Assembly: GCA_949358305.1 (NCBI GenBank)
Contig: OX442314.1
Coordinates: 4,278,001 to 4,342,000 of the forward strand
From: Strigamia acuminata
Taxonomy: Eukaryota
Direction: 5' to 3'
Length of the DNA: 64,000 nt
Shown here: positions 26,429-53,300 of the stretch, piece by piece
Layout: every line of letters starts with the position of its first letter
Position numbering within the stretch: the first letter of the stretch is position 1
Translations under genes and position numbers: made by a program
The notes under the pieces: model-generated
What the model saw: the letters and a program-made list of their open reading frames with translations, nothing else
Database searches by the model: none
What the model was told of the DNA's origin: nothing

Positions 26429-26499
26429 TCTGCAGTACAAAACAAGTTGCAAACAAAGAAATTCTTGTTGCAAATGTAACGCCCCTACACTACAGTAAG

Positions 26500-28132: not shown

Positions 28133-28690
28133 ATGGCATTGTTTGTTTATATTTTTTGTTTACATAAAACTAACGAAAACGCAAGATATTATTGACGTCC
28201 GAAGTAAATAGACAACTACTTCTGTTGATAATAAATTCTTAAAAGAATATTTATGGTGATAAATTTGCAATTTTATTTTTACTATTTTATTAAATTTATA
28301 CAGGTTATGGCTGTACATACAACACTGTACTGAAGTTATATTCTTGCTATATCAACAATCACTACTCTAGTCTTTCAGTCGTCATGGAGCAATGGATGGT
28401 GCATCATCGCGCATGATTATTAAAAAATGGCCACTGTGATTACAACTCAACATCTAAGTGATATATTTTTTCAGACTTAAAATGTCATTTGACACACTAG
28501 GTGCATTCAATAAGTCTAAAACGTATGCAAAACTCGTTTCGTGTTTGCACCTGACGTCATTCCCATTGAATAAAATGTTATTCAATGGGAATTGGAATGA
28601 CGTCACGTAGTGGTTTTAGTTTCACGTATAAATTTATTAGTTACAGCGTGATTACAATTTCAAATGAGTAGAAAACCAGTTATAACTTTT

Positions 28691-31600
28691 TCAAATAAAA
28701 ACGTGCAGTGAAAGTAATGACAGTCCCAATGCTAATCCCACAATGCTGCCGACATCACTTAGCAATTGTGATATTGGATATTTTTGGCTATCTATTGTAG
28801 TTTCATCGAAACTATCAGCTGGCCGAAGCTTTATAAACGTGTAAAAATTAGGTTTGAGTTTAATTTCATGCATAATAGTTTGGTAATAAATATTTTCACA
28901 GGGTTGTTTACATTTGCAAGTTTTGAGATTGGAATTATAATTGTTAAAGTACAGGGAACGAGCACGAGTAATGTCTTGCACCGTGTTGCAAGGCGCCAAA
29001 TACGGTGTTGGCATGAACGGCAATCTGAAACCAATTATAATCATTTAATCAAATGTTGTCAGCATTTTCTAAACGGAACTACAACATTACCTGCAATTCA
29101 TCCTGTGAAATAAATTGTTATGCATGCAAGAAGTTTGACACGTGAAATAGGCAGTTTTGTTTTGTTCACACGGATTGTGTTTGGTATTTCTCTGTATGGT
29201 CTGTTTGATAACGTAAGCATGCTTTATAAATTTTGTTTTTGTAGTGCTTATACACAGTGTACCCTGTGTGGTTTGGACAACTCTGAGATCCAGAAAGTCT
29301 AAGTTTGGCAGATAAACAATCGTTTATATGGTAAATAAATGATTTGATTCAAAAACAAACATTTCGTCTACAAATTCGTCTGAGACAAAAATTTAGACAA
29401 TGTGACTGGTATCGTCTTTGCCTTGGCAGTCTGGGGACTGGTTACTATGGTTTGGGACGCATACTCACTTAATAATGACAAGAGATTCCATATTGTCGAT
29501 TCCTAGTCCATTGCCTTAACCACTGGGCCACCACTACAAACTATTGTTGTCTTTGAGCAGGCAGTCATGTTGATGAACAAAGTTGTGATGTCATATGTCA
29601 TGTGATATCAAATTACTTGGCTTCCAGAGTAAAGTTTGAACAGGCTAATCACCAAGTGTAGTGCTACACTTGACCTTTTTACTCAAAAAATCAAAAAATG
29701 GTGTTTCAACACACAGTAAGGAATCCTGTGTGTTGTAACTGTTTGTAACAATGTGAGAGAGAGGTGCATTTAAATATTTGAAAGGACCATTGCTCAGGTA
29801 ATGTGAATACTTTATTTAACAACAATTTTAACAATTGTGGATTACACACTCCTACGGTCTCCTTCTGAGCGTTGCAGTGGTGAATGGGGAGGAGACAGAG
29901 TCAGCAATAGGCACGACTGCCCTTGCTGGCTCAGGCCTTTCTTAACACATTCATTTGTCTCGGCCGAGACCAAGCACTCTATCTCGTGACCTCTCTCTAT
30001 GGTAGTCGTTCTTCAACTCTCTACTACTCCGCACACCACTCAGCTCCCTTCATCCCTCACTGGGTCATACCACTCCGCAAAAGAGGAATGATATTAGGGC
30101 CACTGGGCGGTGTGTGGCAGTGACGCGGGTCACCCTTGGGTGGTGCAGCGGTCACAACGAAAAGTAATTGAATTATTCAAAATTGTGTATAATTATTTTT
30201 CTGCTTTGTCTAGTCTGGACATATGACATTTGACCAATTTAGAGAACGGACTCAGGATCAGACAACTTTCTGGAGCTCGATCTATGTCTGGACAACACAG
30301 GGTACACTGTTCTTAGAAGATGCAATAAAACTCTGAACGAATGCGGAGTAACAAAATCATATTTTCTTGGAGTAGGTTTTTGGTCATTAAATCTAGCAGT
30401 TTTTAAAAATTGCAAAAACTAAAACTTTGAATGCACTCAGACGTCACCTTAGATATACGAAGAGCTAGTATAGTCGCTGCACCATAGTTTATAAACATAG
30501 GTGCTAGAATATTAACTTCATCTTCTGGATTATTTAGAAAAAACTGAAAAATATTGTAATTACCATTAATGCACTAATAGAATGTGGGTGTATTATTGAC
30601 ACCTAGATGTTCTAGTCATTTATTGGTATTGCTATTTATTATGAGTTTCTATGATGTCATTAATGTATGAGCGCCACCTGGTGCACTGTGCTTTATACCG
30701 TAAAGGAACTTTAACGGAACCACTTCCGGTTTTACGCTAACTCTAACACGTCTTTTTTCTGTACATCCACTTCAATCCTTAGACAGTCATCACTATTTAT
30801 TTTATCTTTAACAATCTTGTGTTCAGAACTTAGCATCAACATCCCAGGTGCAAATGCCACCTTGCATTGGCTGAACAAATTTTTTAGGAATTTAGATGAG
30901 AGATATAGTACCATTGCTTTTTAATCAACGTCTTTTCGCTTGTTGTTAACTACGGAGTATTTTTTATGAAATAAATTTACTTTAATCTTACCCATAGATG
31001 TTGTTCACAAACTTCTGGAGGAAAAAGACGTATAAATGCAATTATGACATCTGCTGTTACATGGTGGGTTTTTTCTTTAAATAAAAATTAAAAATAATCA
31101 ATATACTTTAAAAGATCCTGTACAGTACTTGCGAAGACTAATAGCTAGGGGAGGTGATTAATTCAACATCAGCGGGTTCTGGGAAAAGCTTGGTCTGCAG
31201 GATTACCCAATCTCCAAAATGACTCTGTTTAGACCACGCATCTAGTCTGCAGACTGTTACCGTATCAGATTTTTGTTGGGCCTTCAATAATTGAGTGGTT
31301 ATGATTATTGCAATAATCAACAAATCACAATAATTGCTCATTTAATGAAACTCCTTATTATAAATGCTTGTTTTTATGCTAAATGAGGCTCACAGCAGCT
31401 TGACAATTGATAACTCATGATATGTGAAGAAAAGAATTTGTAAACATCTTGCATTGCAAGCCGGTTATAGTTATTTTAGCGACGCTCATTTTAGCAATTT
31501 TTACAAAAAAAGTGCCATTTTAGCGATCACGTTTTAGCGACACGATTTACCGCGACAAGCCGGCTCAAAAAAGTGGTTTGCATAAAAAAACCAGCAAGGT

Positions 31601-34600
31601 TAGGTTCGCGGGGGGTCAAGGGCCCCCCCCCCTTGTTAGCCCTTCTTAGGAGTTAAACCTAAGTATTAGTGCCGTTTTGTGTCGCTAAAATGACACGTTC
31701 GCAAAAATGGTGTGTCGCTAAAATGAAATCGCTAAAATGTAGTACATCCTTGCAAGCATGTATTACTGCAGGTACAGAAATCATTGATCAAATTAATTTG
31801 TATAAACATGTAAAAGGAAATACTAGTTGTCTCGTTGTTTCGAAGGCATCAGAAAAGCAAAGGATGCTACCGTACTACCTTGAACAATGGCCCGGGCGTT
31901 TAATTTTTTTTTCGACTCGCCCGCCAAGTGTTTATTCAAAACCAGGCAATTATTCAAGCCAGGCCTCTATCCGAAAAAAAATTTAAAATAACAAGGTATA
32001 AAAAATTTGTGGTTGTGTGCACGTTTTTTCAAATTTTTTGGAGCTATACCGCTGTATTATTGGTAGAAATGCAGCAATGAAACAATGAAGGAGTGTTAAA
32101 TAGCTCATTTCTACCGTACATTACGTGTACGTGTACGGTAGACATAAAAATTTACAATAAACCCGGCGTTTAAACACGCCCGGCGTTTATTTGAGGCAGG
32201 CGCTTATTGGTTCTTTAGCTGGTGGTTGCCAGGCGCTTAATCAAGAGCCGGCGCTTAATTGCGCCCGGCCATTTTTCAAGGCAGTACGGTATACACAATA
32301 CAGAGTATAGACCTAAATTGTTGAACTGATAAGTTACCTGTGTTTACTTGTGAACAATTACCAAAAGGAAGTTGAATAAGACTGGTTGTTGTGTTTAGTA
32401 TTGTTTCATATCCCAAAAAGTGCTATAAATGTAAATTCTACATCATTTCTGTTGTATTTAAAAAAAAAAATCTATTGTACATACTTTAGTGAGCGTGTCG
32501 TTAACATTAACTGTTTGATGGATATTTAGCATCTTCCAAATATCTTGCAACGACAATTTATCATTGACTAATAGCCATGGTGATACTTCATTGCAGGTTT
32601 TGTTTGTCTGATAAATTTACTGCCGCCTCGCTTGTTCCATCTCATCACTGCGATTTTCACCACAGATTGTGACGGATGGAAACTGTATGAAGGCCCGTTG
32701 ATCTATAGTAATGATTTTTGACACAGGTTCTTCTATGTAGCAGCTTAAACGACATTGCAACAAGTATAGAGTGAATCCGACACTAATTACAACCAGCACA
32801 ATTTTAAGCTTTTTTAAAACTTTATTAGTTTCGATTTGCTCTTCACTCGCAATGACTTCTTTCTTGGTTAACTCATAGAGATGGCGAATCTTATCAATGC
32901 TTCTTATTTTGCGCATGGTTGCTACAACATAATATAAATACCAAATAATTTCAGGTAGTGAGATTACTGATAGACCGAGAAATAGTCCTAGATTGCCGCC
33001 TAAATCTGATAGTAAAGCAATAAGGTCGTAGGTGAAGCGTTCTTGATACACGGTAATTTTGTCGTTAGTTAGAGCTAAAGTCAGAGACATTATTTTTGGA
33101 TCATCTGCTTCGCCGGAATCAGTGTAGGGTGTGAAAGCCAGATGCTGACATGGAGGTCGACAAGAACAAGTAGTAATTGCATTTGTGGTGTCAATTAATT
33201 TATTGACTATGCCGTATTGATCGTGTGTAGCATTTGAACATTCACAAAGCGGTAAATTTATTTTCAGAAAAGGAAATCTTAAAAAAAAGAAAAGTGTGTG
33301 AAATTAGGATGGTTTTGTTGTGGGTGTGTATGGATTTGTGCAAAACATATTGATAATCTTGAGTGAATACGTATACAGTATATTATATGCTTTTTACCGG
33401 CAGGTTAGATCATTTTCTAATCTTTTGAACAAACACTTTTGGTAGCAGTCTCTGTATTCAGTTTCATTGGAGCATGCGCGTTTCGATGAATTGAGAAATA
33501 CGTACTGAAATTATACAAGTAGAAACATACTAGATCAGAGTTTCATTTTAAATGGGTTTAAATGTTACTTTGTCATAACTCAAATTTATTTTCACTGTTG
33601 TGCCAGTGGTTTCATATGTAGTGAAGAAAACTTTTCCAAAATTATGTAATGAAAATATAATCTATAAGTAAAAAAAAAAGAAGGAAATTTATTTCTCTTC
33701 TTGCTATTGGCATGAAATTTTATAACATTACTAGGTATAAGGCTTCAGGGCAGATGTCGTGATAAAACTTTTCAAAATTGACTGTCAGTTGTTTTCCAAC
33801 AAACGATTCACTAGAATTCTTAGCTAACCATAAAATGAAAAGATTATTTTACTTTTATACAGTTGAGTAATCAATAGTGAATGCATAAGGTGTATTCTAC
33901 AGGGTGAACAAAAAGTCTATCACTATAGTAAATATTTCTGAAAGTGCTGACAATTCATCTGATCTAATGATGGTAAAGTATTAAAGTTGGGTGGGGCAAT
34001 CTTTTGGTGACCCGAAATTTGACCTTGGGATGTTCCTTCAAGGTCATTGGGAAATTATCTCGGAAACCGTTAGAGATAAACAGAAATTTCCATTTATAAA
34101 CTTGTAGAGCAACATTTGTTTAGTCTAAAAATGACGAATTCTCAAAGCTGTTGTACTAAAAATTTTTAAGAAAATTGCAATTGAAAAAGTAGACACAAGT
34201 CAAAGGATAACATGGCCAAAATGGAAAAAGTGCCAAAAACGTGCTGATTAGACGTAAAATGATCCAAAAAAATCGATTCTCCTGGTCGGAATTTGCATAT
34301 CTGGCACCGTTGCAGAGATATGGGCAGAAAACTGAATTTTTTTATGACTTTCTTTTCAAAACTACTTTTTCAATTGCAATTTTCTTAAAATTTTTTGTAC
34401 AAAAGATTTGAGAATTAGTCATTTTTAGACTAAACAAATGTTGCTCTACAAGTTTACAGTTGGAAATTTCTGTCTATCTCTAACGGTTTCCGAGATAATT
34501 TCCCAATGACCTTGAAGGAACATTCCAAGGTAAAATTTCGGGTCACCAACAGATTGCCCCACCCAACTTTAATAGTTTACCATCATTAGATCAGATGAAT

Positions 34601-35309
34601 TGTCAGCACTTTCAGAAATATTTACTATAGTGATAGACTTTTTGTTTACTCTGTATACATAGTCAACTGCGCACTACAACTGTAGTGTTTTATTTACCAA
34701 ATTGAAATGCTGAGCAGATTCCGAATGCGTGATCTATTTCCTTCTGGATAAAGCTTTTGTTTGAAAATTCCTGCAGCGGTTTAAATAATTAGTTTTTATT
34801 CTTTGTCATAGTTTTTAATTTGTCTTTACTTTCATTTTGACGTTCACTATTGCTGTCGTCAAATTGGTGGCTTTCCAAACTTCATCCATATTGTAAATTG
34901 GGCGTTCCATAAGAGTTTTCATCATGTTTATGCACTCGTATGGATTCTTTCGACCTGTTTTATCTAATTCCTTACTCTTATTCCAAAGCATGGCCAATTC
35001 TTTTGAATGGCCACCACAGATCATCAAGTATGGTAAAACGACATCGTCTGATTTTTCTATTACGTCAACAGCCGTTGGATAACTAAAGTAATGCATTACT
35101 CTGTCATATGTCTGATAAGTGAGCACGCATGAGCAAAATAAGAACAAAATAAGCCAAAAGGTGTGACGTTTGCTCCAACGTTGTTTACTGTTAATGAAAT
35201 CATCCAAACCAGTTAAACAGCAGCTCGGTTTGTTCGCATCATCTCTCATTAATTGATGAATTGTTATTCGTAGTTTTCTGTTTCTTTTTTTGGTATAGTT
35301 ATTTTGCAT
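28691..35309 (-). pseudogene. Tandem two-domain DEG/ENaC (pickpocket-like) gene, copy 1, 11 exons, with an in-frame nonsense codon
   Basis: Exons 34830-35309, 34698-34770, 33732-33823, 33569-33661, 33398-33504, 32485-33277, 32338-32422, 30992-31074, 30448-30543, 29091-29200 and 28691-29024. They encode TM1 + YFSYPT/LPYLMIC, a Cys-rich thumb and TM2 LLSDLGGNLGLFLGLS, then a second TM1 + FPSVTIC, thumb and TM2 LLSDVGSIVGLALGLS. TAA at 32617-32619 and TGA at 28691 both align to TTA in copy 2. Confidence 0.8.
29255..30309. mobile_element. TIR element in an ENaC copy 1 intron
   Basis: CAGTGTACCCTGTGT... and ...ACACAGGGTACACTG inverted ends. It is absent from the short equivalent intron of copies 2 and 3. 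Confidence 0.65.
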
Positions 35310-35565
35310 TGTGTTGGTTATTCGCGCAACAAATATTATAGAAATGACTGAGTGGTTAATAATTACGGTTTTCCAGCTTACAAATGTGTCAGTAATGTAG
35401 AAGAGATATTGTGTGCTTTCGAGCAGAGTTGGTAGTTGCAGTTTCTGCTCTTAAACTGTTATGGAGTTCAAGGTAAACTGTCATGTCTGTCAACTTGTCG
35501 TAAATATTGAGGGGTGTGGCTAGTCAACTACCGATGAGTACACACATTGTGTGTATTCATTTATA

Positions 35566-35578
35566 GTTTCTTAGCAAC
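35566..35578. promoter_or_regulatory. RFX X-box-like motif upstream of ENaC copy 1
   Basis: GTTTCTTAGCAAC, 257 bp upstream of the ATG at 35309. The motif is conserved in the paralogous upstream regions. Confidence 0.55.
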
Positions 35579-36569
35579 ATGTGGGTTGATTATTGATTAG
35601 TACAGTGTTACGGTTTTGCAACTGTAAAAGTGGCAGTAATTACCACCAGAGCTCGCTGCACCGATGTAAATTGCGAAATTTTAACTTAAAATACAGAAAT
35701 GTATCGCAATGTAAATAAATCTACAACATTTGATATTATTTAGCATTGAATCTATTTTGTAACAATAATCAGCAATGTAAAGGACACTGGAAAAAAATAT
35801 GGCTTTAGGAATTGTAAACGTTCCAAAAATTCATGTGTTTTTGTAAAGTTGTTGTATAATCAAACAAAAATTAGAAATTTAACGTTGTATTTACAAACTT
35901 CTTAAATTTCATGTATAAATTATACATTTACATTAAATTTAAGTTGCTTGTAAATGACTTGGAAAGTTAACATACCGTACCCCCCCCCCCCCTCAGTCGG
36001 GTCAGTTCGGGGCGGTGCGCTGTGCACTAAACGCTGCTGACACACTGGCATTTAAAAGAGTCTCAGCGACTATTTAAACCCAGCGGTTTATTCAAGGCAG
36101 TATGGTATGAGATTAAAAATTTAAATTTGTTAAATGTGGGGTTCTATTAATTTTAATTCAAAATTTAATTAAAATGTCATTGATGGAATTAAATGAAACA
36201 AAAAAAGTTATAAAATTCTGTAGTTCAACATTTTAATTTGGTTCTAGAATTTGTAACACGATGACATAGATGCGAGCTAGTATCATTGCCTTCGGTTGAT
36301 TTTGTCCACACTTTTGATCGAGGCTATGAATCTTGTGCATATCTTATATATGTGTGAGATTTTCATGAAAATTTAATGGATTTTCATAGGATTGATTTTT
36401 ATCTTTATTTTGTTAGTAATGATAAATGGAATTCTTAATCATACAAGTGGCAAAAGTGGATATGTATATTTAATTGTGGATAGATCATGAATTGTAATGT
36501 GCATGCGAAGTGTGCAGACTTATAGGTATTAAGTGAGTTGTAATTGGTGCAGAAACATTAGCATCAATC

Positions 36570-39500
36570 TTATGCAGTCCTAGTTTCGACAAACTGACCA
36601 ACCAGATTAAGTCGAAACCAATTATAACTTTTTAAAACGTAAACTTGCAAAGAAAGTAATGACATTCCCAATGCTAATCCCACAATGCTGCCGACATCAC
36701 TTAACAATTGAGACATTGGATACTTTTGGTGTTCGGTTGTAGTCACATCGAAACTATCAGCAGGCCGAAGCTTTATAAATGTGTAGAAACGGTATTGGAT
36801 TTTAGATTCATGCACAATAGTTTGGTAGTAAACATTTTCGCAGGGTTGTTTACATTTGCAAGTTTTTTGATTGGAATTGTAATTGTTGAAATACTGAGAA
36901 CGGGCACGAGTAATGTCTCCCATCGTGTTGCAAGGTGGCAAACTAGATGTTGACATATATGGCAATCTGAAACAAGCAGTAGTTCAATTCGACGGTAATG
37001 ATTAGTAGATTAGAGTCAAATTTTATGAGTATTTTACAACAATACCTGCAATTTATCCTGTGAAATAAATTCTTCTGCATGCAAGCAGATTGACACATGA
37101 AATAAGCAGTTTTGTTCTGTTCACAAGGGTGGTGATTGGTATTTCTACGTATGGTCTATTTGATAACTTAGTAAGTATTACGGAGTAAAACTTTTGTTTT
37201 TGTATTTTTAATATACAATAAGTGCATTCGATCTCTTTTGCCATTAAAGTTGGCTGTTTTTAAAATTGCAAAAACTAAAACTTTGAATGCATCCAAACGT
37301 TACCTTGGATATACGAAGAGCTAGGACAGTCATTGTACCATAGTTTATTGACATAGGTGATAAAATATTAACTTCATCTTCCGGATTATTCAGAAAAAGC
37401 TGAAAATTATTATATCTGGTATTAGAAAAAAACTTCTTCAATCGTTAGACATTTGGAGCTTGTAGTGTTGTAAGCACAAGATTAACTTTTTTTATGAAAT
37501 AAATTCACTTTGGTCTTACCCATAGATTTTGTTCACAAACTTTTGGAGGATAAAGCTTTAAAGGTGCCATTGTTACCTCTGTTGTTACGTGGTGCGTCTT
37601 TTCTAAAAAATAAAAATAAAATAAAAAACAGTGAAAAATTAATTTAACTCTTAAGTTTTTTAACTCTATGGTGCCGTACGTTTTCTCTAGTAGTGGCCCA
37701 ACACTGGTCGGTACTGTACCCTTATACCATGTTCACACAAACGGATCGAGTTTGACTGGATCTGATCCGCCCGATCAGATCCAACTGAACAGTCCCAATA
37801 TTCACTGTGATGGAGTTGTGTTCACATCCAAATGTGATGCGCAACAATGGAATGCCACAGACTGCTGACATTATTTAATGAATTCCAATCCGAATTCAAT
37901 TGTCGAATCAAGTTGTGGGAACTCGATTGACGAACGGTGTTGTTGGGCCCACAAATCTAGATCTTTGAACGGAGTTCAGTGTTCACAACAATCTTGGATC
38001 TATACTCTGGTTCGACTCAAGAGTATGCCTTTCTAAGAGCCGCATCACTGGTGTAGTGATCCAAAAATGTAGACCCAAACACCATAACAAACATGAGTTT
38101 TTCACTCATATGTTCATAAAACCTTATTTAATAAGTTTAATAAGTATAATAAGTATAAAATAATCAAAATTATATCAACTTAAATGGTAATAACAATCAC
38201 AAATCATAATAAAAATAAAAACTACTTTTCCTAGTGGTAGTAATAAAACTTGAGTTAGGAGTAATGCGGCTCTTAGAAGGGTATACTCTTGAGTCGAACC
38301 AGAGTATAGATCTGCAACTTCGGATGAGATCCAAAAGCGTAGTGTGAACATGGTATAAGTTAACACAATGTTGTCTTTTCTCGCATTGGCAACTTGCATC
38401 ACCTGATGGTGTGTTTTTGCCAAGCTGAGGCCTCGAACGACTTATGGGATTTGCAGTGCTTTATGGAATTGTTCACAATGCCACAGGAATTTGTCACAAG
38501 TTTTGATCAAGATCGTGTAATTGTGTTCTGTTGAAAAAAAAGTTTTCTGTGTAAATTACCTGTTTTTACTAGTGAACAATGACCAAAAGGCAGTGGAATA
38601 AGACTTTTTGTTATATTTAGTACAGTTTCATAACCAACAAAGTGCTATAAATAAAAATTAGATACATTATAAGCTTACTTTGAATAGTTATTGTTATATC
38701 CATGTACACCTATGGACAAAAAAATCTTCACTTACTGTCAGTCGCATTTAAACTTTCTGTTGCCCCCAGAAGAAGTAGACTGCTCTAGCCGCCGGTGGCA
38801 GAAAAATGAACTGCTCATTTGGAGCTGAAGCAGCCTGACAGCATATGAAGATTTTTTGTTTGTAGGTGTACAATCTAGGTCATAAAAATTGTCGCTGTTT
38901 TCCATGCTAGGCCTAGGGAAAAGGCGACAATTTTTACGACCGGATTGTACCTTAGTCAGCTTGTTGTTAACCTGAAGTGTTCGATGGATATTAAGTGCCT
39001 TCCAAATATCTTCCAATGACAAGTTCTTGTTGACCAATTGCCACGGTGATATGTCATTGCAAGTTCTGTTTGTCTGCTTAAGTAACTGCTTTCTGGCTTG
39101 TTCCGTCTGGTCACTGCGATTTTCACCACAGATTGTAGCGGATGGGAACTCTATGTACCGCCGTTGATCTATGGTGATGATTTTTGATACAGGTTCTTCC
39201 ATGTAGTAATTTAAACGAACTTGCAACAAGTATAGAGTGAATCCTGCACTAATTACAAACAGCAGCAACTTAAGCTTTCTTAAAACTCCGTTAGTTTCGA
39301 CTTGCTCTTCACGTGCAATGACTTTTCTCTTGGATATCTCATAGAGACGGCGAATCTTATCGATGTTTCTTGTTTTGCGCACGGTTGTTGCAATACAATA
39401 TAAATACCAAGTGATTTCGGGTAATGAGGTTATCGATAGACCGAGAAATAGCCCCAGATTGCCCCCTAAATCTGATAGCAGAGCAATAACATCGTAGGTG

Positions 39501-42349
39501 AACCGTTCTTGATAGACGGTGATTTTCTCATTGGTTAGTGCTAAAGTCACAGAAAGTGTGTTTTGATCATTCGCTATGCCGGAATCAGTGTAGGGAGTAA
39601 AAGCTAGGTGCTGACATGGAGGTCGACAAGCACAAGTAGTAATTGCTTCTGTGGTGTCAATTATTCTATTGACTATGCCGTATTGATTGTGCATAGCATT
39701 TGAACATTCACAAAGTGGTAAATTCATCTTCAGAAAAGGAAATCTACAGGTTAGATTGTTTTCTAATTTTTTGAACAAGCAATTTTGGTAGCAATCTGTG
39801 TAGTCCTCTTCATCCGAGCACGGGCGTTTCGATGAATTGAGAAATACGTACTGAAATTTAAAGCAGATTAAGAATAGATGTTTCGTTTTAATCAAGTTTA
39901 AATCTTACCTTGTCATAGCTCAAATTTATTTTAGCTATTCTACCAATGAGTTTACGAAGCGTAAAGTAAATTTTTCCAAATTCATACAACGTTAACATAA
40001 TCTAGAAATAAATATAATATAATACGATATGTAATATTATGGCCTGTTATTTTATAAATACTACTAGGTATGACGTTCGAGGGCAGATGTCTTGATGAAA
40101 CTTTTCAAAATTGACCGTTAGTATTTTTCCAACAAACGATTTACTCGAACTCTTATCTAACCACAGTGGAAAGATTATTTTATTTTTAGTCGGTTGAATA
40201 ATTGATGAAGTTATAAAGGGTGTTCACAAAGTTTTTATAGACGTGTTTATTTAATTTATTGGTTGCTTTGTCAGGAACGCACACAATTTACTAACAATAG
40301 GTAATCGATTGCAATGTCTGTACATCTAATGCAATTCTGGAGTTTTGATCTACTTTTATGTGTCACTACACAAGTGAAATGGCTCGGCCAATGGGAGAAA
40401 CACCAAACTTGTAGTGAGCCAGAGTAAAGAGTAATTTAATGACTTGTGTCTGCTTTAGGAAATTGCAATTTTCTTAAAAAAATTTAGTACAAAAAATTTG
40501 AGTAGTAGTTATTTTTAGACTAAATAAATGTTGCTCTACAAGTTTACAATTGGAAATTTCTGTCTATTTCTAACGGTTTCCAAGATAATTTTCCAATGAC
40601 CTTGAAGGAACATCCCAAGGTCAAATTTCAGGTCACCAAAAGATTGCCTCACTCAAATTTAATACTTTGCCATCATTAGATTAGATGCATTGTCAGCACT
40701 TTCAGAAATATTTAGTAGAGAACCAGACTTTTCTTCCACCCTGTATAGAAATTTATTAACTACAGTGTAGGCTGCGTAGCCCGGACATAGCACCAACCGG
40801 ACAGCTGTGTGGTCCGGACAGTTTGGAGGGCCTGATTTGGTCCTACCCAATACCCAGCAATATAAAATCTCCTCTGTCATCCGGACATTCCCTAGACCGG
40901 ACAAGTTTCTGGGTCCGGGCTACGCAGCCTACACTGTAATTGAAAAAAAAAATACTACCGGTATACAGTATACTTTGTTACCGGTATATAGAAGTTTCAA
41001 AGTTTCTGACTTTTTTTTAATTTTAACAAAACTTTAAAATTGTCTGGAGACTTTGGGAACACCCTGTATAATTAATTGCACCCAATATCTCAGTGGCAAA
41101 CGCAAACATTTTAATAAAGATATTGGGTGAGATTGGGTAAGTTATTTACCAAATTGAAATGCCGAGCACATTCCAAATGGGTTATCAATTTCCTTCTGGA
41201 CAAAGCTTTTGTTTGAATATCCCTGCAGAGGTTGAAATCATTAGTTTTTATTCTTTACAATAATTTTTTCTTTTTGCTTTTACCTTCATTTTAATAGTAG
41301 GTGCATTCCAAAACGCAGTGTTAGGCGTTTTAAGCGTTTTCGTTCCGTGTCGTTTTATGGTCGTTTTAGGCCTGTTTAGGAATGTCAAAACAAAATTTTT
41401 TTTTGCCCTTGTTTTAGCAAAATTTGTATTACCTTAGTAACATCAGTTTTGGAAATATTTATCTGTTTACAAAATCAATTTATAAAATATTCGAATTCTG
41501 ACTAATTTTATTTATTTGTGGGCGGAAAATGGCTAGGTTTTTAACAGCCGACGAATTCACATCAACAATCGCGCCAAAATCCAAGCACCGTCGATTTTTT
41601 GACAATTAACACGTGTTGACAAAAATAAATAAAGTTTTTTAAAACTTCGAATATTTTATAACAAATAAATAAATATATATTTCCACAAAAATTTCCATAA
41701 AAATGAAAATCGAACGATGGCAGCCCTAACACCCAAATCGTGTCTGCTAAAACGTGTTTTGATACACGTTTTCGTTTCAGCCGTGTTAGCGCCACAGACA
41801 CGGAATTTTTCCGGATGTGACGTCATTATTGCTAACACGACACGGCTGAAACGGCTGAAACGGGAGTTTTGGAATGCACCTACTGACTACTTCTGGCGTC
41901 AAATTGGTTGCTTTCCAAACATCATCCATGTTGTAAATTGGGCGTGCCATAAGAGTTTTGATCATGTTTAGGCAATCCAATGGATTAGTTAGACCTGTTT
42001 TATCTAATTTATCACTCTTATACCAAAGTTTGGCCAATTCTTTTGTATGTCCACCACAGATCATCAAGTATGGTAAAACGATTTCGTCTGATTTTTCTAT
42101 TACGTCAACAGCCGTAGGATAACTTAGGTAATGCATTACTCTATCGTATGTCTGATAAGTGAGCATGAATGTGCAAAATATGAACAAAAAAAGCCACAAG
42201 GCGTGGTGCTTGTTTAAACGTCGTTTACTGTTAATGAAATTATCCAAACCAAATAAACCACAGCTCGGTTTGTTCGTATCATCTCTCAGTAATTGATTAA
42301 TTCTGAGACGTAGTTTACTACTTCTTCTCGTGATATAGTTATTTAGCAT
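36570..42349 (-). CDS. Tandem two-domain DEG/ENaC gene, copy 2 (~800 aa, 10 exons; exon 1 interrupted by a MITE)
   Basis: A single 900-nt exon (38951-39850) encodes the domain-1 thumb and TM2 (LLSDLGGNLGLFLGLS), a ~45-aa linker, and domain-2 TM1 + YMEEPVS/FPSATIC. The terminal exon has CKCKQPC and LLSDVGSIVGLALGMS. No internal stops were seen. Confidence 0.85.
37722..38357. mobile_element. Harbinger-like MITE with a nested inverted-repeat element (~38033-38275)
   Basis: TTATACCATGTTCACAC...GTGTGAACATGGTATAA. The inner element is bounded by TAAGAGCCGCAT / ATGCGGCTCTTA. Confidence 0.7.
40763..40936. mobile_element. Tc1-like MITE
   Basis: TA|CAGTGTAGGCTGCGTAGCCCGGAC...GTCCGGGCTACGCAGCCTACACTG|TA. 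Confidence 0.8.
41299..41881. mobile_element. Harbinger-like MITE inserted in ENaC copy 2 exon 1 (relative at 54211-54348)
   Basis: TIR AGGTGCATTCCAAAAC / GTTTTGGAATGCACCT with flanks AGT/ACT. The relative at 54211-54348 has a perfect ACT TSD. Confidence 0.85.
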
Positions 42350-44335: not shown

Positions 44336-47300
44336 CTATTTGAAAAATCGACCAGCCAGATTGTGTCGAAGCCATTTATAACCTTTTAAAATATCAATGT
44401 GCAAAGAAAGTAATGACATTCCCAACGTTAATCCTACAATGCTTCCGATATCGCTTAACAACTGAGATGTTGGATATTTCTTTCCTTCTACTGTGGTCTG
44501 TATGAAACTATCAGCCATTAGAAACAGCATGTACGTGTGAAACTTTAATATGATATTATTTCCATGCATAATAAATTGGTAAAAAATATGTTCACAAGGT
44601 CGTTTACATTTACATTGTTTTTGATTTATGTTGGAGTTATTCAAATATGTGAAATGGGCTCCAGTAACGTCTTCCGTTGTGTTGCAAGCTGGCAAATTAG
44701 ATGTTGCCATGTATGGTAATCTGAAATAAGTAGGCTTACTGTACTGCAAACAAACCGATTTATAAATACTCCTGATTAATTTTGTTTGTAATCCACACTT
44801 ATTATGAGCACATAAAACATGTCCTTAAAAATGGGATTGCACCTGACAAACTAAGATTTTGCACATGCACATAAGCAGTTCAGAGTATCGCCTAGTGCTA
44901 AAAAGTGACAAAAAATGTGTACCCTTCTCTCGTAAAGGTGTCATCTGTAAATGTTATACTCCGTATTATTTTATTAGAGATGGAAAAAATATTAAATCTT
45001 TGGAGGAATTTAAGTTGGTCTCCAAATTAATTTTCAGAAAACAGTTAGTTATTTTACTACTTTTGTTATTTCCCTGACTTCCCCTAGACTATGGGAGGGT
45101 TAAAGGTCATTAGAAGAGAAATAAAAAATTTCTCTAATCTGTTTGAAATAATCTTAAAAAAGGTTATAGAATATTTTTTTCTGCAACACTTAGTGGTTTC
45201 TCATGATCAAACCGTGTTTTAACCATTTGAACAAGGGAATCATTTTGTGCAATGCATTCTGGGATTTCATGTCATTGATGACGTCATTACTAAACACTGA
45301 GGTAAACAAATATCATGTGTTCATTGTTTCTCAATAACACTTGTTACCGCACATTTTACTCATTTGTTATTACACAGTACTGTGCAGCTGTGGAATGCCA
45401 GAATTCATCAAAAAGTAACAAATTTTTTTATTTCTGTAACTAAAAATTTTGCTTTAACCTCAACTTTGTAGCTAAAATTATCGATATTGTATAGCTAAAA
45501 ACAGATGCAGTTAAAACATGCAGTTAAAACATGCAAATCACTAACGCATAAAAACATGTTAAAATAGCGAATTTGTGCTTGAATTCACCTGCTTGTTTGT
45601 CGTCGATGACGTATAAATAACGCCACCTAGTATTTATAATTTTTTGAAAAGTGTCATGGCAGAATAATTACTGCTAGGTTAGAAGTTTAACTGCTTTTTT
45701 TCATACGCTGTACGATTAACAGTTAAAAATATTACATAACCTTTTTTCAGTTTATTTTAAAAAGATTAGAGAAATTTTTTATTTCTATTCCTATGACCTG
45801 GTGTGAACTCTCTTTTACAAGTAGTTTAAAAAGGAATTGGATTACAATCAAATTTTAAAAGATAGTTTTGTAACAGCTTCTAAATACCTGCAGTTGATCT
45901 TTCGAAATAAACGGTTTTGTCTGCAAGCAGTTTTACACATGAAATAAGTGGTTTTGTTTTTTTCGCAGGGGTTATGTTTGGTATTTCTACGTAAGGTCTA
46001 TTTTATGAAATAAAGACAAGCGTGGTTTTTGAATTTTTTAAAATAGGTTTTGTCATACCCATTGGTGTATTCAGAGTTAGAAGAGTTTGTAAAAACTACA
46101 AATTTAAAACTTTGAATGCACTTAACATTTTGGCACCTTAAATGTTCGAATAGATATCGTAGTACTTCCACCATAGTTTGTCATCATTGGTGCTAAAATA
46201 TTAACTTCGTCTTTTGGATCATTTAGAAAAAACTGAAGGATTTTTATTGTTATTGAAATATGTGTCGAGTAAACAAGGGACTAGAAAGAACTACCGTCTT
46301 CCACCGACCGTGGTGTTGTATTCGAATATAATCCCACCGTAGGGTTGTATTCGAATACAACACTATCGTCTCATATTTATCCAATATCATGTAAGTTTGT
46401 CAAAAAAGTAAAATAGATTTGTATACTGTAGGTTTTAAATATTTTTATAAAAATTTGAAAAGAACACCATGGTTCTGTATTCAAAAACAATACAAATCTT
46501 AATATAATACCATGGTGGTATATTCGAATATAACACCGTGGTGTTATAGCTGAAGTGGTGTTATATTCGAATTTTTGCTCAATGTTTACAAAATTGCCAT
46601 TTCTAGCATAATTCAAATACAACACATGATGTTATTTTCGGTGGAAAACAGTAGTTGTTGGTTAATTGGTTTTATAATTGATTAGTTTCGTGACTATGGA
46701 AATGCATGTATACTAAATTAGACTAGTACAACAAAGGTTATGGGCCTACACCGATTAATGACATTAAGGAAATTACTGTGAGTGGTCTGCACGTGATTAT
46801 GATGCATAAATCGCCGAAATTTTGATATTTTTTGGGCCAATTACAAGTTGGATTGTCTCTCTCCTGTGTTTTTGTTGCGCACATCTTGGAAAGAACGTCA
46901 TGGCGGTCAAGTTGGACAATTCGATGGCGTATGTTGAGAAATTAAATGGGAGAAATTACCCAACATGGGAATTCTGAGTTCAAGTGCTGCTCAGAGCAAA
47001 TAACGTTTGGAGTGCAGTTGAAACAAGTAAACCAATTAAAATCATAACCGAGTCTGAGGCCGATTTTAAGATGCGTAAAGATGCGTGGAGTGTCAAGGAT
47101 GTTGAAGCACTCAATTATATTTTACAAATGATTGATGCAGCCCAGTTATAACACGTTTTGAACAAGGAGACGGCAAAGCAGGCCTGGGACGCACTGAAGG
47201 CGGAGAACCAGGGCGAGCTGGAGGAACTCAAAGTTTGAAAGCGTGTGGAGATTGGACACATCAAAATGAAATCAAATGAAACGATATCGGTATATTTGGA

Positions 47301-50300
47301 TCGGATGATTTCGATTGCAGAGGAATTAAACTCGATAGGATCACCCATTGCAGAGGCAGAGTTGTGTGCTCACATTTTACAGGGACTCACCACAAGTTAT
47401 GCTGCGGTGGTCACTAGCTGCGACGTAATAGGGCGCAGTACTTTGAAATTACCGACGCTACGACGGGCGCTGCTGGCTGAGGAGTTGAGGAAGACATCAC
47501 TCTCACCCGCAGTGGAAGTTGGAGCAGAAAGTGCTTCTTGGATTGGTGGATTTGCGAGAGGCAACGAACGTGGATTTACCGGGTCGCGGACCAGCCGCGG
47601 TGGAGGAAGTGGTCGCCCCGGACCTAAGTGCTGGAACTGTGGCCGAATTGGGCACCGATATTCCGAATGTCGTCAACTTGATGATCCAGCGAAGGTTGCC
47701 GATAATCGCGTACGCGGTCGTGGGCAATTTCGCAGACGAGGGCGAGGACCGAACCAGCGAGCAAATGCTGTGACATCGGAACAGCCTGACGACCTTTCAT
47801 ACGTGGTCGATTATGCCATGAATGTGCAGGAAAACTTTAATCAAGTAATGAGTGAATCGAATTCAAATGATAGAGATATGAAAGAGGAATTCACCTGGTA
47901 CATAGACTCAGGTGCATCATCTCATATGGCCAATAATGTGAAGTGTTTTAGTGAATTGCAAATAGTGCCTGGTAAGAAAGTGATATTAGCTGATGGACGT
48001 CAGGAACAGTGCTACTTTATTTTTTGATAAAGGAAAAACGTCGGATAATTAAGTTGAGTGAAGTAAATTAGGTACCTTCATTGAAAACTAATTTACTTTC
48101 GGTGGGACGAATTGTGGAATTGGGTTATATTGTGAGTTTTCATGATGGGATTTGTGACGTTAATTTGAAAAGTAGACAGATGATTTTTAGAGCGTTTAAA
48201 TTCCGAGGGTTATACATATAAAGTGGACAATCACTCAAATATTTCATCTGCGGGATTGACGACGACTAAGAGACAATAGGGGGTTTCATTATATGAATGA
48301 TTTTGCAATTTTGTGATTTTGCATTAATTACAAAATCATTATTTTTTGATGCCTCTAAAAATGGGATTACATTGAATTAACCCAGTCAATTTTGCAATTG
48401 TGTGATCTGGACAACTTTGTGATTTTTGAGTATTGCCATGTGATATCTGTTCTACCAATCACATTCACATTCACTAAAGTACAAGAGAGTAAAAACACAA
48501 AATCCCAAAAACATCTAAAAGGTAGTTTTTGTGATTTTGATAAGAAGTGATTTTGAGGCTTGTGAAACTCAAAACAAAATGGAGGCATCCAAGCTCTATC
48601 TAAGTGGCCAACTTGTATCCTTGTATATCATCAATATGCTGATGCATCCATGACTGTATAACAGCTAGGAAACTCAATTAATGGCTCTTGTGCAATCTGT
48701 GAAACTTATATTTATTAAAATGTACTTTTTTAAAAAAAATTTTGTTCTATCACACAAATACAGGGTGAGTCAAAAGTCTGGAAACACCTTTTTTTCTTGA
48801 AAATAACCGAAGATACATCAATTCTATTGATGTAGGCATATAGGAAGTTGATGGTGGGCTATCCAGTGGTGATCTTAAATTTGTCCCGGAAGGTCATCTT
48901 CAAGGTTATTCACTTTCTAACTTTTAAACCGTTTAAGATACAGCAAAATTTCCAATTACAAAGTTGTAGAGCACCATCAAATTAGTATTATCCAACTTAT
49001 CTTAGTCACTTTAAGTAAAATGGTTTTTTTTAAAAAATGAAAACAAATCAGCAAATTGAAATTTTTTATTCCTATAAAAATAAAATAATTTAGACATTAA
49101 AAAAAGACAGTGGTTTTACTTGTGTACTTACATAATAATGCAGATTTGAATATATTTATTGAAGAAATTCAGTACTTTTGCAGTAAAAATTTAAGTTTTG
49201 TTACAATGGCTGGCTTTACTTCAGCTGATTTGTTTTCATTTTAAAATGAAAACATTTAAATTAAGATGTCTAAGATAAGTTGGATAGTACTAATTCGATC
49301 GTGTTCTACAACTCTGTAATTGGAAATTTTGCTGTATCTTAAACGGTTTAAAAGTTAGAAAGTGAATGACCTTGAAGATGACCTTCTGGGTCAAATTTAT
49401 GGTCACCACTGAATAGCCTACCATTGACTTCCTATATGACCACATCAATAGAATTGACATATCTTTGGTCATTTGCAAGAAAAAAAAGTGTTTCCAGACT
49501 TTTGACTCACCCTGTACAGTAAGCTAGAACTAGTTATTTTGCATCACATTTTAAAATTGGTTAGATATAACTAAAACCCAATATGGTGGATGAGTCATGT
49601 GACTATTTAAATAATTGCAAAATTGCAAAATCATGATATTGTTTTTGCAACTAATTGTTAATCACAATTTGTGATGACAACTTGGATTGAGTTTGGCTGC
49701 TGCCATTTTGCCAAAATATCAAAACTATCTTTGATTTTGTGATTGTGTATTTTTTCTGTTTTGTGTTTTTGCAATTATGCACACAATTGGTGGAACTGAT
49801 ATCATGTGACAAATTCAAAAGTGCAAAATTGCTAAAGTAGCAAAATTGCAAAATTGCTTAATTAATGAAACCCCCTAATTACCTTTGATTGAGAATAATC
49901 ACAAATCAGTACCAAATATTCCGGGATTGCCAATTACTTTATGGCATAAAAGATTGGCTCATTTAGGATTTAAATCGATTCACGCAATAGTCAGCGAAGG
50001 ACTGGTTAAGGGTATGCGACTAAATGTAAACAAGAATCCCGGAATATGTGATAAGTGCGTAGTTTCGAAGAAAACTCGTGACCCATTCTCTTCAACTCAA
50101 CATATTACAGCCACTGGACCATTTCAAATGGTTCATGTGGACTTATGTGGACCTATGAAAAGTGCATCTACTTTGGGGAATAGATATATTTTTACAATTG
50201 TGGATGACTTTTCGCGTGCAATTTTCACAGAAATCCGAGACAACCAAAGAATTTCTTAACTATTTGCAACTCTACGAACCCACATATGGCCGATCTTTAC

Positions 50301-53300
50301 GAAAAGTGAGGTCAGACAATGGCACTGAATTTCTGGGTTCCAAATTTAAAAATTTGTTGCATGAGCGAGGAATTAACCACCAATTAACTGTTCCTTACTC
50401 GCCTCAACAAAATGGCGCTGCCGAGCGCCCAAACAGGAAGTTACTTGATGCGGCTAGGACACTGTTACTGGATGCAAATTTGCCTATTCGATTTTGGCAA
50501 AATGCGGTGGAAGTTGCCGCATACTATTGTAACAGATCCCGAATGAGACGTTTTAAAGATGAGACACTTATTGAGAGATTTACTGGACATAAACCAAACA
50601 TTGCAAACATGCGCCTTTTTGAGTGTCTTGCTTACACCTGGTTTCCGGCTCAGGAAAGGACCAAGTTCGACCTCCGAGCGAGGAGAGCAATTTTTATTGG
50701 TTATTCATTTCAATCGGCGGGTTGGCGGTTCTTTGACTCCAGCAGGAATAAATATTTTGTTGCACGTGACGCCAAGTTTGATGAGCAAACTCAGGGATCA
50801 AAGCTGTTATTGAAGGAATCAAGCGACGCATTGGACCGAACCGAGCCGAATCCATCATTGGAGAGTTGTGGATGAGGAAGTTTTAGTGGAGTTCAATGAT
50901 CTACCTTCCCAACCCCCACAGCCTCCTCCACCTAATATTATGTAACCGAGCGCAGCACGACCGGTACGACGCAATCCAGTAAGGACATGTAGATTACCTG
51001 CCCATCCCACTCCATATGATGTGACGGATTGGCGCCGACACCGTAGAGTCAGGTTTTCATCTGGGGATATACACACGGCACGTCTAAACAAAGTTGAAAT
51101 GGCAGATGATGTGATCGTGCCGAGGAATTATAAGCAAGCTATGGCATCAGCGCAAGCAGACAAATGGCAGAAAGCCATGGAATCGGAACTGAAGTCTCAG
51201 CGGGAACAGGACACTTGGGACATAGTTGACTGTCCTATTGGAAAGAAAGTTGTCGGATCTCGCTGGATTTATTTGCTTAAGACCAATCAGAAGAGAAATA
51301 TTCTAAAATAGCCCAAGGTTATAATGTTTTCAAGGGCGTGGATTATGATGAGTCGTACTCCCCCGTGGTGCGAATTGCGACAATACGCATTTTAATGTGT
51401 GAAAATCGGATGATTTTACGTGTAAATTACAATTTTTAATTGATTTGTATTGTTGAATTATATTTCCATTTTTACTTGTGAATTTTGATATTGAATTTAT
51501 GATTTTATTTGATTTGTGTATGTTATATTTTCATATTACAATGTGTTTTATCTCCACTTAAAATGTTTATCAATTTATTATAATATGTTTTCAATTTCCA
51601 TTTAAAAGGGTTTAACTTGTTCTCTTATCAACCGGAATGTTAGTTGCTAATCTGTTAAAGAATGTTATAATCTTCTAAATTGTGACACGCTCGTCATTGG
51701 TCCTTTGAGCGCGTCATTTGCATTTTGCCATCTTGTAAATGCTTGTGATTGGTTCTCCGAACTTATCATTTGCATCACCTTTTATCATTTGAATTGAATA
51801 AATCTTAGTGTACTTTTTTACCTTAAACTGTGTGATCGTGCTTCCTTTATACTCCGACGCCATATTGGAACTTCAACAGAAACATCATTTGTATCCAGAG
51901 AACTTTGGAAATTAATTGGTAAACTTCGAATAACTTTTTATTTACTTCAAGTTTAACATAATGGCATTGGCTGCCTGACACGGATTAAGAATGCGACATT
52001 GTGACATCGAAACAGCATATTTACATGCACTACTCAAAGGGACGGTTTTTATGGAATTATCCGAGGGCATTGACCTCGGTCCGGACAAGGTGAAACTACT
52101 AAAGAAAGCCATATATGGCCTTTCTCAGGCTGGCCAAGCATGGCACATCACACTGGAAAAGGAATTACTAAAGTCAGGATTTGTGAAACATCCAACCGAA
52201 CAATGTGTACATTTGTATTTTCTGGGAACGTCAATAATGATTTTAGCAACTTATGTCGACGACTTACTAACGTTGGACAATGACCCAAAGTTGCTGAGTA
52301 AGTTAATGACAAAGTTTCGTCAGCGTATTCGAGTCATTGATCTGGGGAAGATTGAAACCTTAGTAGGCATTCACATTGATCAAGACTTGAATAAAAGTAC
52401 AATTACATTGGATCAAACCAAGCATATTAGAGAGTTAGGCGAACACTTTGGACTTACTGGGTCGAGAACATTTAAAACATCAATGGACCCATCTCAGAGA
52501 TTAGAACTTCCGGGTTATCCCTTGAGACCTGATGCCAAAGATAAGCCTTATCGGGAACTGATGGGAGCATTACTCTACTTAGCTCAAGGACCTAGACCCG
52601 ATATTGCATTTCCGGTCCCCTTCTTGTCTCAATGGCTCAACCAACCCTGTGAAGGACATTGGATCTCTGTGAAACGGATTTTGAGGTATTTACTGGGTAC
52701 AGCGAATTACAGACTCACTTATATTGGGACGAAGGTGGACTTAACCACATATACAGATGCTTCTTGGAACACATGTGGCAAAGACTCTAAATCATTTGCC
52801 GGGTTTGTGAGATTGTTGAATAACACTGCAATTACGTGGCAAGCCAAAAAGCAAAGCTTGGTTTGCTTATCGACTTGTGAAGCAGAATTTACAGCCATGA
52901 TTGAGGCTAGTAAGGAACTTAAATGGATCCGAAACATAACCGAGGATATGCGAATCAACCCGCCATAGATTTGAAAAAAAATTTTAACTTTTATGCGAGA
53001 ACGGAAAATTTTAATCGAAGAGTTTCATTTGTGCGACAGGACTTGGAGAAGGGATTTTATGAGCTGACATATATATCAACGGACAGAATGTTGGCTGATA
53101 TGATGACTAAAGCGATAGGGCCCGAAAAGTTGAAACACGCATGTGAACAAATTGGATTAGTTGACTTTACAGAAAGTTTGAAGAATTAGAAATTGCGAAT
53201 TATGATAAATCCAATATGTTGGTTAATTGGTTTTATAATTGATTAGTTTCGTAACTATGGAAATGCATGTATACTAAATTAGACTAGTACAACAGTAGTA

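What the first reader, a model, noticed from the sequence alone, without database searches (positions are those of the whole stretch)
28691..42349. Naturally fused two-subunit (4-TM) DEG/ENaC channels, tandemly amplified
Seen in sequence: in copy 2 (38951-39850) and copy 1 (32485-33277), the TM2 of one DEG/ENaC subunit (LLSDLGGNLGLFLGLS) runs with no stop and no intron through a ~45-aa basic linker into the TM1 and post-TM1 motif of a second subunit (LLLFVISAGFTLYLL...YMEEPVS...FPSATIC). That second subunit has its own Cys-rich thumb and TM2 (LLSDVGSIVGLALGMS). Because the junction is inside one exon and is conserved in two diverged paralogues, a gene-model merge is unlikely. Established knowledge: DEG/ENaC/ASIC/pickpocket subunits have two TMs and assemble as trimers. 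Inference: a covalent A-B dimer cannot form a simple homotrimer. It would need a third single subunit (fixed A:B:C stoichiometry) or would cross-link neighbouring trimers. The ectodomains are compact, and the pre-TM1 HG gating motif is altered (LTG/LFG in domain 1, not evident in domain 2).
Basis: partly seen in the sequence, partly recalled or inferred. Interest (0 to 1): 0.9.

Follow-up and report, generated by a model that had tools for sequence, protein, structure and literature searches.

The report
Centipede ion channels with fused subunits
These genes join two sodium-channel (DEG/ENaC) subunits in one reading frame, as do about twenty related gene models in the centipede Strigamia; the protein likely needs one free third subunit to make the usual three-part pore, but both complete copies here look broken and no transcript was seen.

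Summary
The fusion is real in the DNA. In both copies TM2 of subunit A runs through a 37-residue basic linker into TM1 of subunit B inside one exon, without stop or indel. The two halves share five intron positions and phases (0,1,0,0,2), so one single-subunit gene duplicated and fused last exon to first exon. Of 26 hits named as Strigamia maritima models (picked mostly for spanning the junction), 22 carry it. A and B halves form separate clades, pointing to one old fusion followed by expansion. No transcript of an AB gene was seen. Best model: AB fills two adjacent places of a trimer and a single-domain subunit completes it (0.55); the complex prediction gave only weak support. Three-domain versions occur in Strigamia and in a shrimp-related clade, the latter as unbroken ORFs on short contigs. 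Ten literature searches found no natural DEG/ENaC concatemer.

The parts
36570..42349 (-). Copy 2: two-domain (A-B) DEG/ENaC gene, 803 aa if the insertion in exon 1 is left out. Exons 42349-41881 + 41297-41284, 41222-41150, 40156-40065, 40001-39909, 39850-38951, 38644-38560, 37602-37520, 37399-37304, 37155-37046, 36966-36570
   Evidence: GT/AG boundaries, one terminal stop; Pfam ASC; two near-full profile hits
38951..39850 (-). Copy 2 junction exon: thumb-A, TM2-A (39511-39392), linker, TM1-B (39280-39197), post-TM1 motif, finger-B
39281..39391 (-). Copy 2 cytoplasmic linker, 37 aa, K/R-rich; no Met between TM2-A and the end of TM1-B
41298..41880 (.). 583-bp MITE-like insertion (terminal inverted repeats, apparent TA duplication) inside coding exon 1 of copy 2; breaks the frame unless spliced around
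   Evidence: absent from copy 1
28652..35309 (-). Copy 1: two-domain gene with two in-frame stops. Exons 35309-34830, 34770-34698, 33823-33732, 33661-33569, 33504-33398, 33277-32485, 32422-32338, 31074-30992, 30543-30448, 29200-29091, 29024-28652
32485..33277 (-). Copy 1 junction exon = last exon of A joined to first exon of B; linker at 32925-32815
32617..32619 (-). Premature TAA (aa 502) in domain B of copy 1; Leu codon in copy 2
28691..28693 (-). Premature TGA (aa 782) at the end of TM2-B of copy 1; Leu codon in copy 2
44336..46232 (-). Copy 3: last three exons of domain B (46232-46137, 45997-45888, 44720-44336), open and in phase
63430..63512 (-). Copy 3: next upstream domain-B exon; the rest of the gene lies beyond the window
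46233..63429 (.). 17-kb intron of copy 3 filled with copia-type LTR retroelement ORFs on both strands

Best explanation
These genes belong to an old, expanded centipede family in which two different DEG/ENaC subunits (A and B) share one reading frame, and the protein likely folds as two neighbouring protomers of one trimeric cation channel that a separate single-domain subunit would complete (A-B + C). Origin (shown by gene structure): a six-exon single-subunit gene duplicated in tandem, and the last exon of the upstream copy joined the first exon of the downstream copy. A and B then diverged to about 20% identity and each kept its position. Mechanism (inferred): the short cytoplasmic linker holds B next to A, which fixes one ligand-sensing subunit interface and the subunit order. 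B contributes one asymmetric pore helix (3' Ser/Asn/Ala, usually no acidic 18' residue, no HG loop in these copies). A and C keep the canonical pore, giving a weakly selective cation channel. The likely role is sensory, as for the antennal centipede channels BRTNaC1 and PDPNaC1. The family turns over by tandem duplication and loss: copy 1 is likely a recent pseudogene, and copy 2 is disrupted unless the insertion is spliced around.
For: Fusion: single-exon junction in both copies. Five introns of A and five of B fall within 3 alignment columns of each other with phases 0,1,0,0,2 in copy 1. 22 of 26 hits named S. maritima carry the junction, 18 of AB type and 4 of a three-domain type (chosen mostly for spanning it). 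GGNLG-to-FP spacing is 106 in both copies and 106, 106, 106, 105 in four relatives at 50-58% identity. An ENA protein on a 1154-nt contig spans the junction at about 30% identity. B domains 15 of 15 in one clade (SH-aLRT 98), A domains 11 of 12 (94). dN/dS between copies 0.44 in ectodomain A, 0.37 in ectodomain B, 0.14 in TM2-A. Fold: the AlphaFold model of the complete relative T1JD34 has four long TM helices and two ectodomains, pLDDT 69.7, pTM 0.65, with best structural matches PDPNaC1 and BRTNaC1 over half the model. Fixed position for B: 3' Gly in 12 of 12 A, 21 of 22 single/other domains, 1 of 12 B; acidic 18' in 10 of 12 A, 20 of 22 single/other, 2 of 11 B. Losing one of three E18' lowers but keeps the ASIC1a selectivity order (PMC5449180, passages). 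Third subunit: single-domain S. maritima subunits exist in the same 97-supported clade (T1JKA6 and others), and three-domain concatemers exist in Strigamia and in a Halocaridina-related clade. ESMFold2 of T1JD34 68-753 with T1JKA6 56-368: weak support, score 0.34 against best control 0.00, partner pLDDT at least 69, runs agree in at least 66% of contacts. The mark was reached by 51 of 78 solved and 2 of 108 mismatched pairs; passes at 0.60 or under are more often wrong than right unless likely beforehand; solved DEG/ENaC trimers exist, so it may show likeness only and does not identify the partner.
Against: No transcript of any AB gene was seen: of the junction-spanning AB hits I looked up, all were genome-derived S. 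maritima models except one ENA contig, and RNA reads could not be examined. Both complete copies in the window are broken. The linker shows no amino-acid constraint between the copies (dN/dS 1.32, 3 synonymous and 14 non-synonymous differences; TM1-B 1.05). Introns in the S. maritima models could not be checked at DNA level. A profile search with the family alignment returned only its own first sequence and the metagenome scan found no relative, so the known range is narrow. Engineered ASIC1a dimers gave currents with no added monomer (PMC4529235, passages), so self-complementation is possible. The tree is a quick LG+G4 search with long branches flagged; one A domain (T1IP81) is unplaced.
Confidence: 0.55

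Rival explanations
1. AB completes itself: three AB chains build two linked pores (AAB and ABB), or one pore borrows A from a second chain and leaves its B dangling, so channels are cross-linked into pairs or clusters.
For: Engineered ASIC1a 2x fusions were functional in oocytes (PMC4529235). A keeps a canonical pore helix. A 30-55 residue linker could reach a neighbouring channel (inference). AB-type models far outnumber the single-domain models among the hits I named (biased sample).
Against: It needs an ABB pore with two bulky 3' residues, or unassembled B domains. The strict A/B positional divergence fits one B per pore better. Lower-mass bands in the engineered dimers could explain their currents.
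Confidence: 0.22
2. The gene is a polyprotein or co-expression device: one transcript, but A and B are separated (cleavage in the basic linker, or an alternative B-only transcript) and assemble as ordinary free subunits.
For: The linker is K/R-rich and unconstrained in sequence. Some database models are B-only (P0027, P0032, P0024). A few relatives keep an HG-like motif in the linker (P0014, P0020, P0055).
Against: Copy 2 has no Met between TM2-A and the end of TM1-B, and no AATAAA/ATTAAA in the junction (copy 1 has one hexamer). The linker is cytosolic, out of reach of luminal convertases (established topology). B-only model P0027 begins inside the linker right after TM2-A of its paralogue P0055, as a truncated model would.
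Confidence: 0.1
3. The family is largely dead or unexpressed; the fusion is an old accident copied by tandem duplication and forms no channel.
For: Copy 1 has two nonsense codons and copy 2 a transposon in exon 1. Many S. maritima models are partial. No AB transcript was found.
Against: dN/dS 0.42 over 792 codons, with both ectodomains constrained. Complete 791- and 805-aa models at 20-24% identity to these copies keep TM1, cysteines and TM2 in both halves. 12 cysteine columns are shared between A and B. The four visible exons of copy 3 are open.
Confidence: 0.08
4. AB works as a non-trimeric assembly: a dimer of AB (four protomers), or a non-conducting receptor.
For: Even-numbered symmetry is the simplest use of a covalent dimer, as in K2P channels (recalled). 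One paper argues for tetrameric ASIC1a (PMC4529235). B has lost the HG loop and 18' acid.
Against: The closest solved relatives have 3 chains per entry. Natural three-domain versions stop at three. TM2 of both halves is under constraint.
Confidence: 0.05

Closest known systems
[quoted passage not shown]
   Same: Best sequence and structure matches. Compact ~420-aa DEG/ENaC fold, 17-22% identity to A and B. PDPNaC1 also lacks a canonical HG motif (PMC12714832, passage). Both are antennal sensory channels.
   Different: They are single 2-TM subunits, and PDPNaC1 is described as a homotrimer. They fall outside the clade that holds A, B and the Strigamia single-domain subunits.
Engineered ASIC1a / ENaC concatemers
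   Same: Head-to-tail subunits joined by a cytoplasmic linker; 2x, 3x and 4x fusions conduct (PMC4529235).
   Different: They are artificial, keep full N- and C-termini plus a Gln linker, and repeat one subunit. Here the linker replaces both tails and the halves are about 20% identical.
Vertebrate ENaC alpha-beta-gamma (obligate heterotrimer; recalled)
   Same: Fixed subunit order and an asymmetric pore; from memory alpha-ENaC also has Ser at 3' and 6', as many B domains do.
   Different: Three separate genes; no evidence of orthology; the resemblance was not tested.
Internally repeated channels: K2P, TPC, Nav/Cav (recalled)
   Same: Tandem duplication and fusion of pore subunits followed by position-specific divergence.
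   Different: Those are tetrameric scaffolds, which 2 or 4 repeats divide evenly. Two repeats do not divide a trimer.
Strigamia maritima UniRef models T1JEH2, T1JGJ4, T1JEG4, T1IYF0, T1JD34, T1ITL7 ('uncharacterized protein')
   Same: Same junction and architecture; the nearest are 50-58% identical to the junction exon.
   Different: Unannotated and often partial. The architecture sits in databases but was not found described in the papers searched.

Membership tests
DEG/ENaC (Pfam ASC, PF00858) | ASC profile match in each subunit-sized domain | tested here: met
   above the gathering score; two near-full hits of a custom profile per spliced model.
DEG/ENaC (Pfam ASC, PF00858) | Two TM helices flanking a large ectodomain, per domain | tested here: met
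   AlphaFold model of T1JD34: helices 38-71, 359-395, 423-452, 755-790. Hydropathy alone found 2-3 of 4 in the window copies.
DEG/ENaC (Pfam ASC, PF00858) | One 2-TM subunit per polypeptide | tested here: not met
   Two domains in one ORF. This is the variant feature.
DEG/ENaC (Pfam ASC, PF00858) | Cys-rich thumb and post-TM1 FPxxTxC motif | tested here: met
   12 shared Cys columns between A and B. Motif canonical in B, variant LPYLMIC in A.
DEG/ENaC (Pfam ASC, PF00858) | TM2 signature D0'-G2'-G3'-G6'-G10'xS12'-E18' | tested here: inconclusive
   Met in A; altered in B at 3' and 18', GxS kept in both window copies.
DEG/ENaC (Pfam ASC, PF00858) | Pre-TM1 His-Gly re-entrant loop | tested here: not met
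   FG/TG in A, none in B. Also non-canonical in PDPNaC1. Role of the motif from the abstract of PMC7308080.
DEG/ENaC (Pfam ASC, PF00858) | Trimeric assembly | tested here: inconclusive
   ESMFold2 weak support, 0.34 against 0.00, for AB plus one single-domain subunit.
DEG/ENaC (Pfam ASC, PF00858) | Cation conductance, amiloride sensitivity | not testable with these tools
   Needs electrophysiology.
Insect pickpocket subfamilies | Phylogenetic placement inside a ppk subfamily | not tested
   No named Drosophila ppk was in the trees. A and B group with Strigamia sequences, apart from the Polypedilum row used as outgroup.

The most novel reading that the evidence does not exclude
Arthropods have hard-wired DEG/ENaC stoichiometry by gene fusion at least three times. 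Strigamia centipedes built a large sensory-receptor family of A-B dimers that pair with a shared single-domain co-subunit (tuning module plus co-receptor). A second Strigamia lineage and a decapod-crustacean lineage encode whole six-TM single-chain pseudo-trimers.
Probability: 0.45. Interest if true: 0.9.

Novelty: new variant of a known kind. Interest (0 to 1): 0.78.

Why it matters
DEG/ENaC subunits are described as single 2-TM chains, and subunit make-up and order in heteromers are studied with artificial concatemers that can clip or misassemble. A natural, old, diversified A-B concatemer shows which linker geometry evolution accepts. It fixes two of three positions, so the third subunit, the handedness and each position's share of gating and selectivity can be tested directly. 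It adds a trimeric family to the channels that evolved by internal repeat, with the twist that two does not divide three. It also warns annotators that multi-ASC gene models in arthropods are not always merge errors, and it points to natural single-chain three-domain channels that would need only one cDNA for expression.

Tried and rejected
Gene-model merge: rejected for the window, because the junction is within one exon with 0 gaps in 318 nt while all 5 alignable intron pairs have 1-7 gaps; 4 longer intron pairs were not aligned. Stop-free linker as proof by itself: rejected as weak (39% stop-free in simulation; 99 of 993 overlapping intronic 111-nt stretches are stop-free). A hidden third domain in these genes: not supported. 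All three copies end in stops at different positions shortly after TM2-B, the gaps to the next ATG are 1260 and 1986 nt, and copies 1 and 2 share short upstream non-coding blocks; splicing between copies was not excluded. First tree put one B domain among the A domains; this was traced to a chimeric model (P0054: A front half, B back half). The tree was rebuilt from 64 hand-picked near-complete domains, and 55 of these went into IQ-TREE (9 outgroup-side rows dropped for time). AlphaFold of a three-domain relative (1199 aa of P0154): pLDDT 56.6, pTM 0.42, uninformative about a single-chain trimer. Family-profile search returned only its own first sequence. Metagenome scan: 152 pattern matches, none confirmed. 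ESM Atlas: only generic single ASC clusters for P0063; the query with P0010 did not complete. No whole genome is held. RNA runs could not be examined, so expression is open. Earlier findings of this scan: none.
Full report
Observation. The region holds tandem minus-strand genes. Exon models built from GT/AG boundaries give copy 2 at 42349-36570 and copy 1 at 35309-28652. In both, TM2 of a first DEG/ENaC domain (A) continues through a 37-aa K/R-rich linker into TM1 and the FPS(A/V)TIC motif of a second domain (B). There is no stop in frame, there are 6-10 stops in each other frame, and there is no gap over 318 nt between the copies. Pfam ASC matches the first, junction and last exons of both copies. 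A profile built from 27 single-domain relatives hits each spliced model twice, nearly end to end.

Copy 1 has in-frame stops at 32617-32619 (aa 502, in the junction exon after TM1-B) and 28691-28693 (aa 782); both are Leu codons in copy 2. Copy 2 has a 583-bp insertion with terminal inverted repeats inside coding exon 1. A phase-0 GT at 41890 might let splicing skip it at the cost of eight codons; this is untested. A third copy shows four open domain-B exons, split by a 17-kb intron full of copia ORFs, and runs off the window. So the window holds no copy that is both complete and intact.

Is the fusion real? The stop-free linker in two paralogues is weak by itself: 39% of simulations with the observed 17 changes stay open, and the linker's dN/dS is 1.32 on few sites. 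Stronger evidence comes from four other lines. First, gene structure: in copy 1 the five introns of A and the five of B lie within three alignment columns of each other and have the same phases, 0,1,0,0,2. The junction exon is therefore the last exon of one six-exon gene joined to the first exon of its duplicate. Copy 2 lacks one of the A introns. Second, relatives: the only hits of the first search were five Strigamia maritima models, and the full HMMER scan gave 532 proteins at E <= 0.001, of which 150 were listed. I looked up 30 of them, mostly junction-spanning ones. Of the 26 proteins named S. maritima in all, 22 carry a TM2-to-TM1 junction, including complete 791- and 805-aa two-domain models. 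The TM2-to-post-TM1 distance is 103-131 residues in the 20 AB-type proteins my pattern picked up (28 of 30 proteins given were matched). A 241-aa protein on a 1154-nt ENA contig spans the junction at about 30% identity. I could not see the DNA behind the S. maritima models. Third, phylogeny: 15 of 15 B domains form one clade (SH-aLRT 98) and 11 of 12 A domains another (94), while A and B of one protein are only 19-23% identical (quick search, long branches flagged). That means one old fusion and later expansion, not repeated merging of neighbours. Fourth, selection: dN/dS between the copies is 0.42 over 792 codons, 0.44 in ectodomain A and 0.37 in ectodomain B, so both halves were constrained until recently. 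The organism is inferred to be a centipede close to Strigamia from these hits.

Structure. AlphaFold2 on the complete relative T1JD34 with a 22-row alignment gave pLDDT 69.7 and pTM 0.65, with four long helices at the expected places, two ectodomains and a low-confidence helical linker. Foldseek's best matches are PDPNaC1 and BRTNaC1, covering about half the model (TMq 0.34, TMt 0.68-0.73). The same two lead the sequence search of solved structures. I could not inspect how the two domains pack in the model.

How it most likely works. Pore positions differ by place in the chain. Position 3' is Gly in 12 of 12 A and 21 of 22 single/other domains but in 1 of 12 B. Position 18' is acidic in 10 of 12 A, 20 of 22 single/other and 2 of 11 B. 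In ASIC1a concatemers, one E18'Q lowers selectivity but keeps the order, and two collapse it (PMC5449180, passages). A pore with one B is thus easier to picture than one with two. B in these copies also has no HG loop, which in ASIC1 lines the lower pore (PMC7308080, abstract); PDPNaC1 lacks a canonical HG too (PMC12714832, passage). Single-domain S. maritima subunits lie in the same 97-supported clade as A and B. One of them, T1JKA6, has a canonical TM2 and a relative on a 1495-nt Logan contig. ESMFold2 of T1JD34 68-753 with T1JKA6 56-368 scored 0.34 against a best control of 0.00: weak support, partner pLDDT at least 69, runs agreeing in at least 66% of contacts. The mark was reached by 51 of 78 solved and 2 of 108 mismatched pairs, such low passes are more often wrong than right unless likely beforehand, and solved trimers of this family exist, so it shows likeness at most and not which partner binds. 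I put A-B + C at 0.55 and self-complementation or cross-linking at 0.22, since engineered ASIC1a dimers conduct alone, though with clipped products (PMC4529235, passages). A sensory role is inferred from the antennal Scolopendra channels (PMC9974506, passages; PMC12714832, listing and passages) and from the birth-and-death pattern.

Three-domain relatives. Two further groups carry two junctions. In S. maritima, T1IZL2, T1IU28 and T1IL99 overlap to outline a three-domain protein whose domains are 49-57% identical to each other and form their own clade, so this is a separate, younger concatenation; no single model is complete. Six Logan clusters of 1245-1307 aa sit on contigs of 4.2-5.3 kb and group with a 1244-aa Halocaridina rubra model, mostly position by position (the third Halocaridina domain is unstable). 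An unbroken 3.8-kb ORF on a 4.5-kb contig is most simply a spliced transcript, but the tool does not say RNA or DNA. AlphaFold of one was uninformative (pTM 0.42). These support the view that fused DEG/ENaC domains are made and fill neighbouring places in one trimer.

Against. No AB transcript was seen and RNA reads could not be examined. The family-profile search returned only its own first sequence, and the metagenome scan found no relative. Both complete window copies are broken.

Novelty. Ten full-text searches (four aimed directly at natural fusion: 19, 32, 62, 87) listed no paper describing a natural DEG/ENaC concatemer. Word searches in the main text of PMC8438182, PMC5203786, 10.1101/2022.06.28.497943, PMC11534843 and PMC7067487 (passages) showed none, and the S. 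maritima genome paper PMC4244043 has no ENaC, ppk or amiloride term in its main text. I did not read any supplement, nor the Vizueta surveys of arthropod DEG/ENaCs cited there, nor subscription papers; a passing mention could be in those. K2P, TPC, Nav/Cav and the ENaC residue comparison are recalled.

Noticed in passing
P0063, P0073, P0152-P0157 (Logan contigs 4.2-5.3 kb); P0080 (Halocaridina rubra KAK7028032.1): Three DEG/ENaC domains in one ~1250-1300-aa ORF with short linkers; domains about 20% identical to each other and mostly position-specific across species. A candidate natural single-chain trimer that deserves its own follow-up.
   Followed up: partly
P0002, P0003, P0004, P0011 (S. 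maritima T1IU28, T1IZL2, T1IL99, T1ITG7): A second, younger concatenated lineage in Strigamia, apparently three domains at 49-57% mutual identity, with Gln at pore position 18' in 5 of 5 domains scored.
   Followed up: partly
P0046 (Polypedilum vanderplanki, 1460 aa), P0128 (Oedothorax gibbosus, 1043 aa), P0138 (Notodromas monacha): Other multi-ASC gene models. In the first two the domains are each other's closest relatives; they may be merged tandem genes or recent fusions.
   Followed up: no
window 33278-33397: Intron present in copy 1 (and at the matching place in domain B of all three copies) but absent from domain A of copy 2: a precise intron loss.
   Followed up: yes
window 46233-63429: Several copia-type elements (gag, protease, integrase, RT hits) on both strands inside one intron of copy 3; a 336-nt repeat at 54875-55199 / 60441-60776 is 96% identical and looks like an LTR pair.
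   Followed up: partly
window 33898-34657 and 40440-40747: A ~300-nt repeat occurs as an inverted pair in intron 2 of copy 1 and once in the matching intron of copy 2.
   Followed up: no
window 6925-7314 (-): Exon of a Translin-family gene (Pfam PF01997, E 3.6e-25), probably TRAX.
   Followed up: partly
window 1143-3932 (+): 929-codon open frame, GC- and Pro-rich, with no Pfam match; possibly from a mobile element.
   Followed up: partly
window 17400-26600: Three-fold duplicated segments (about 17.4-20.0, 21.6-23.1 and 24.9-26.6 kb) with short open frames; not identified.
   Followed up: no
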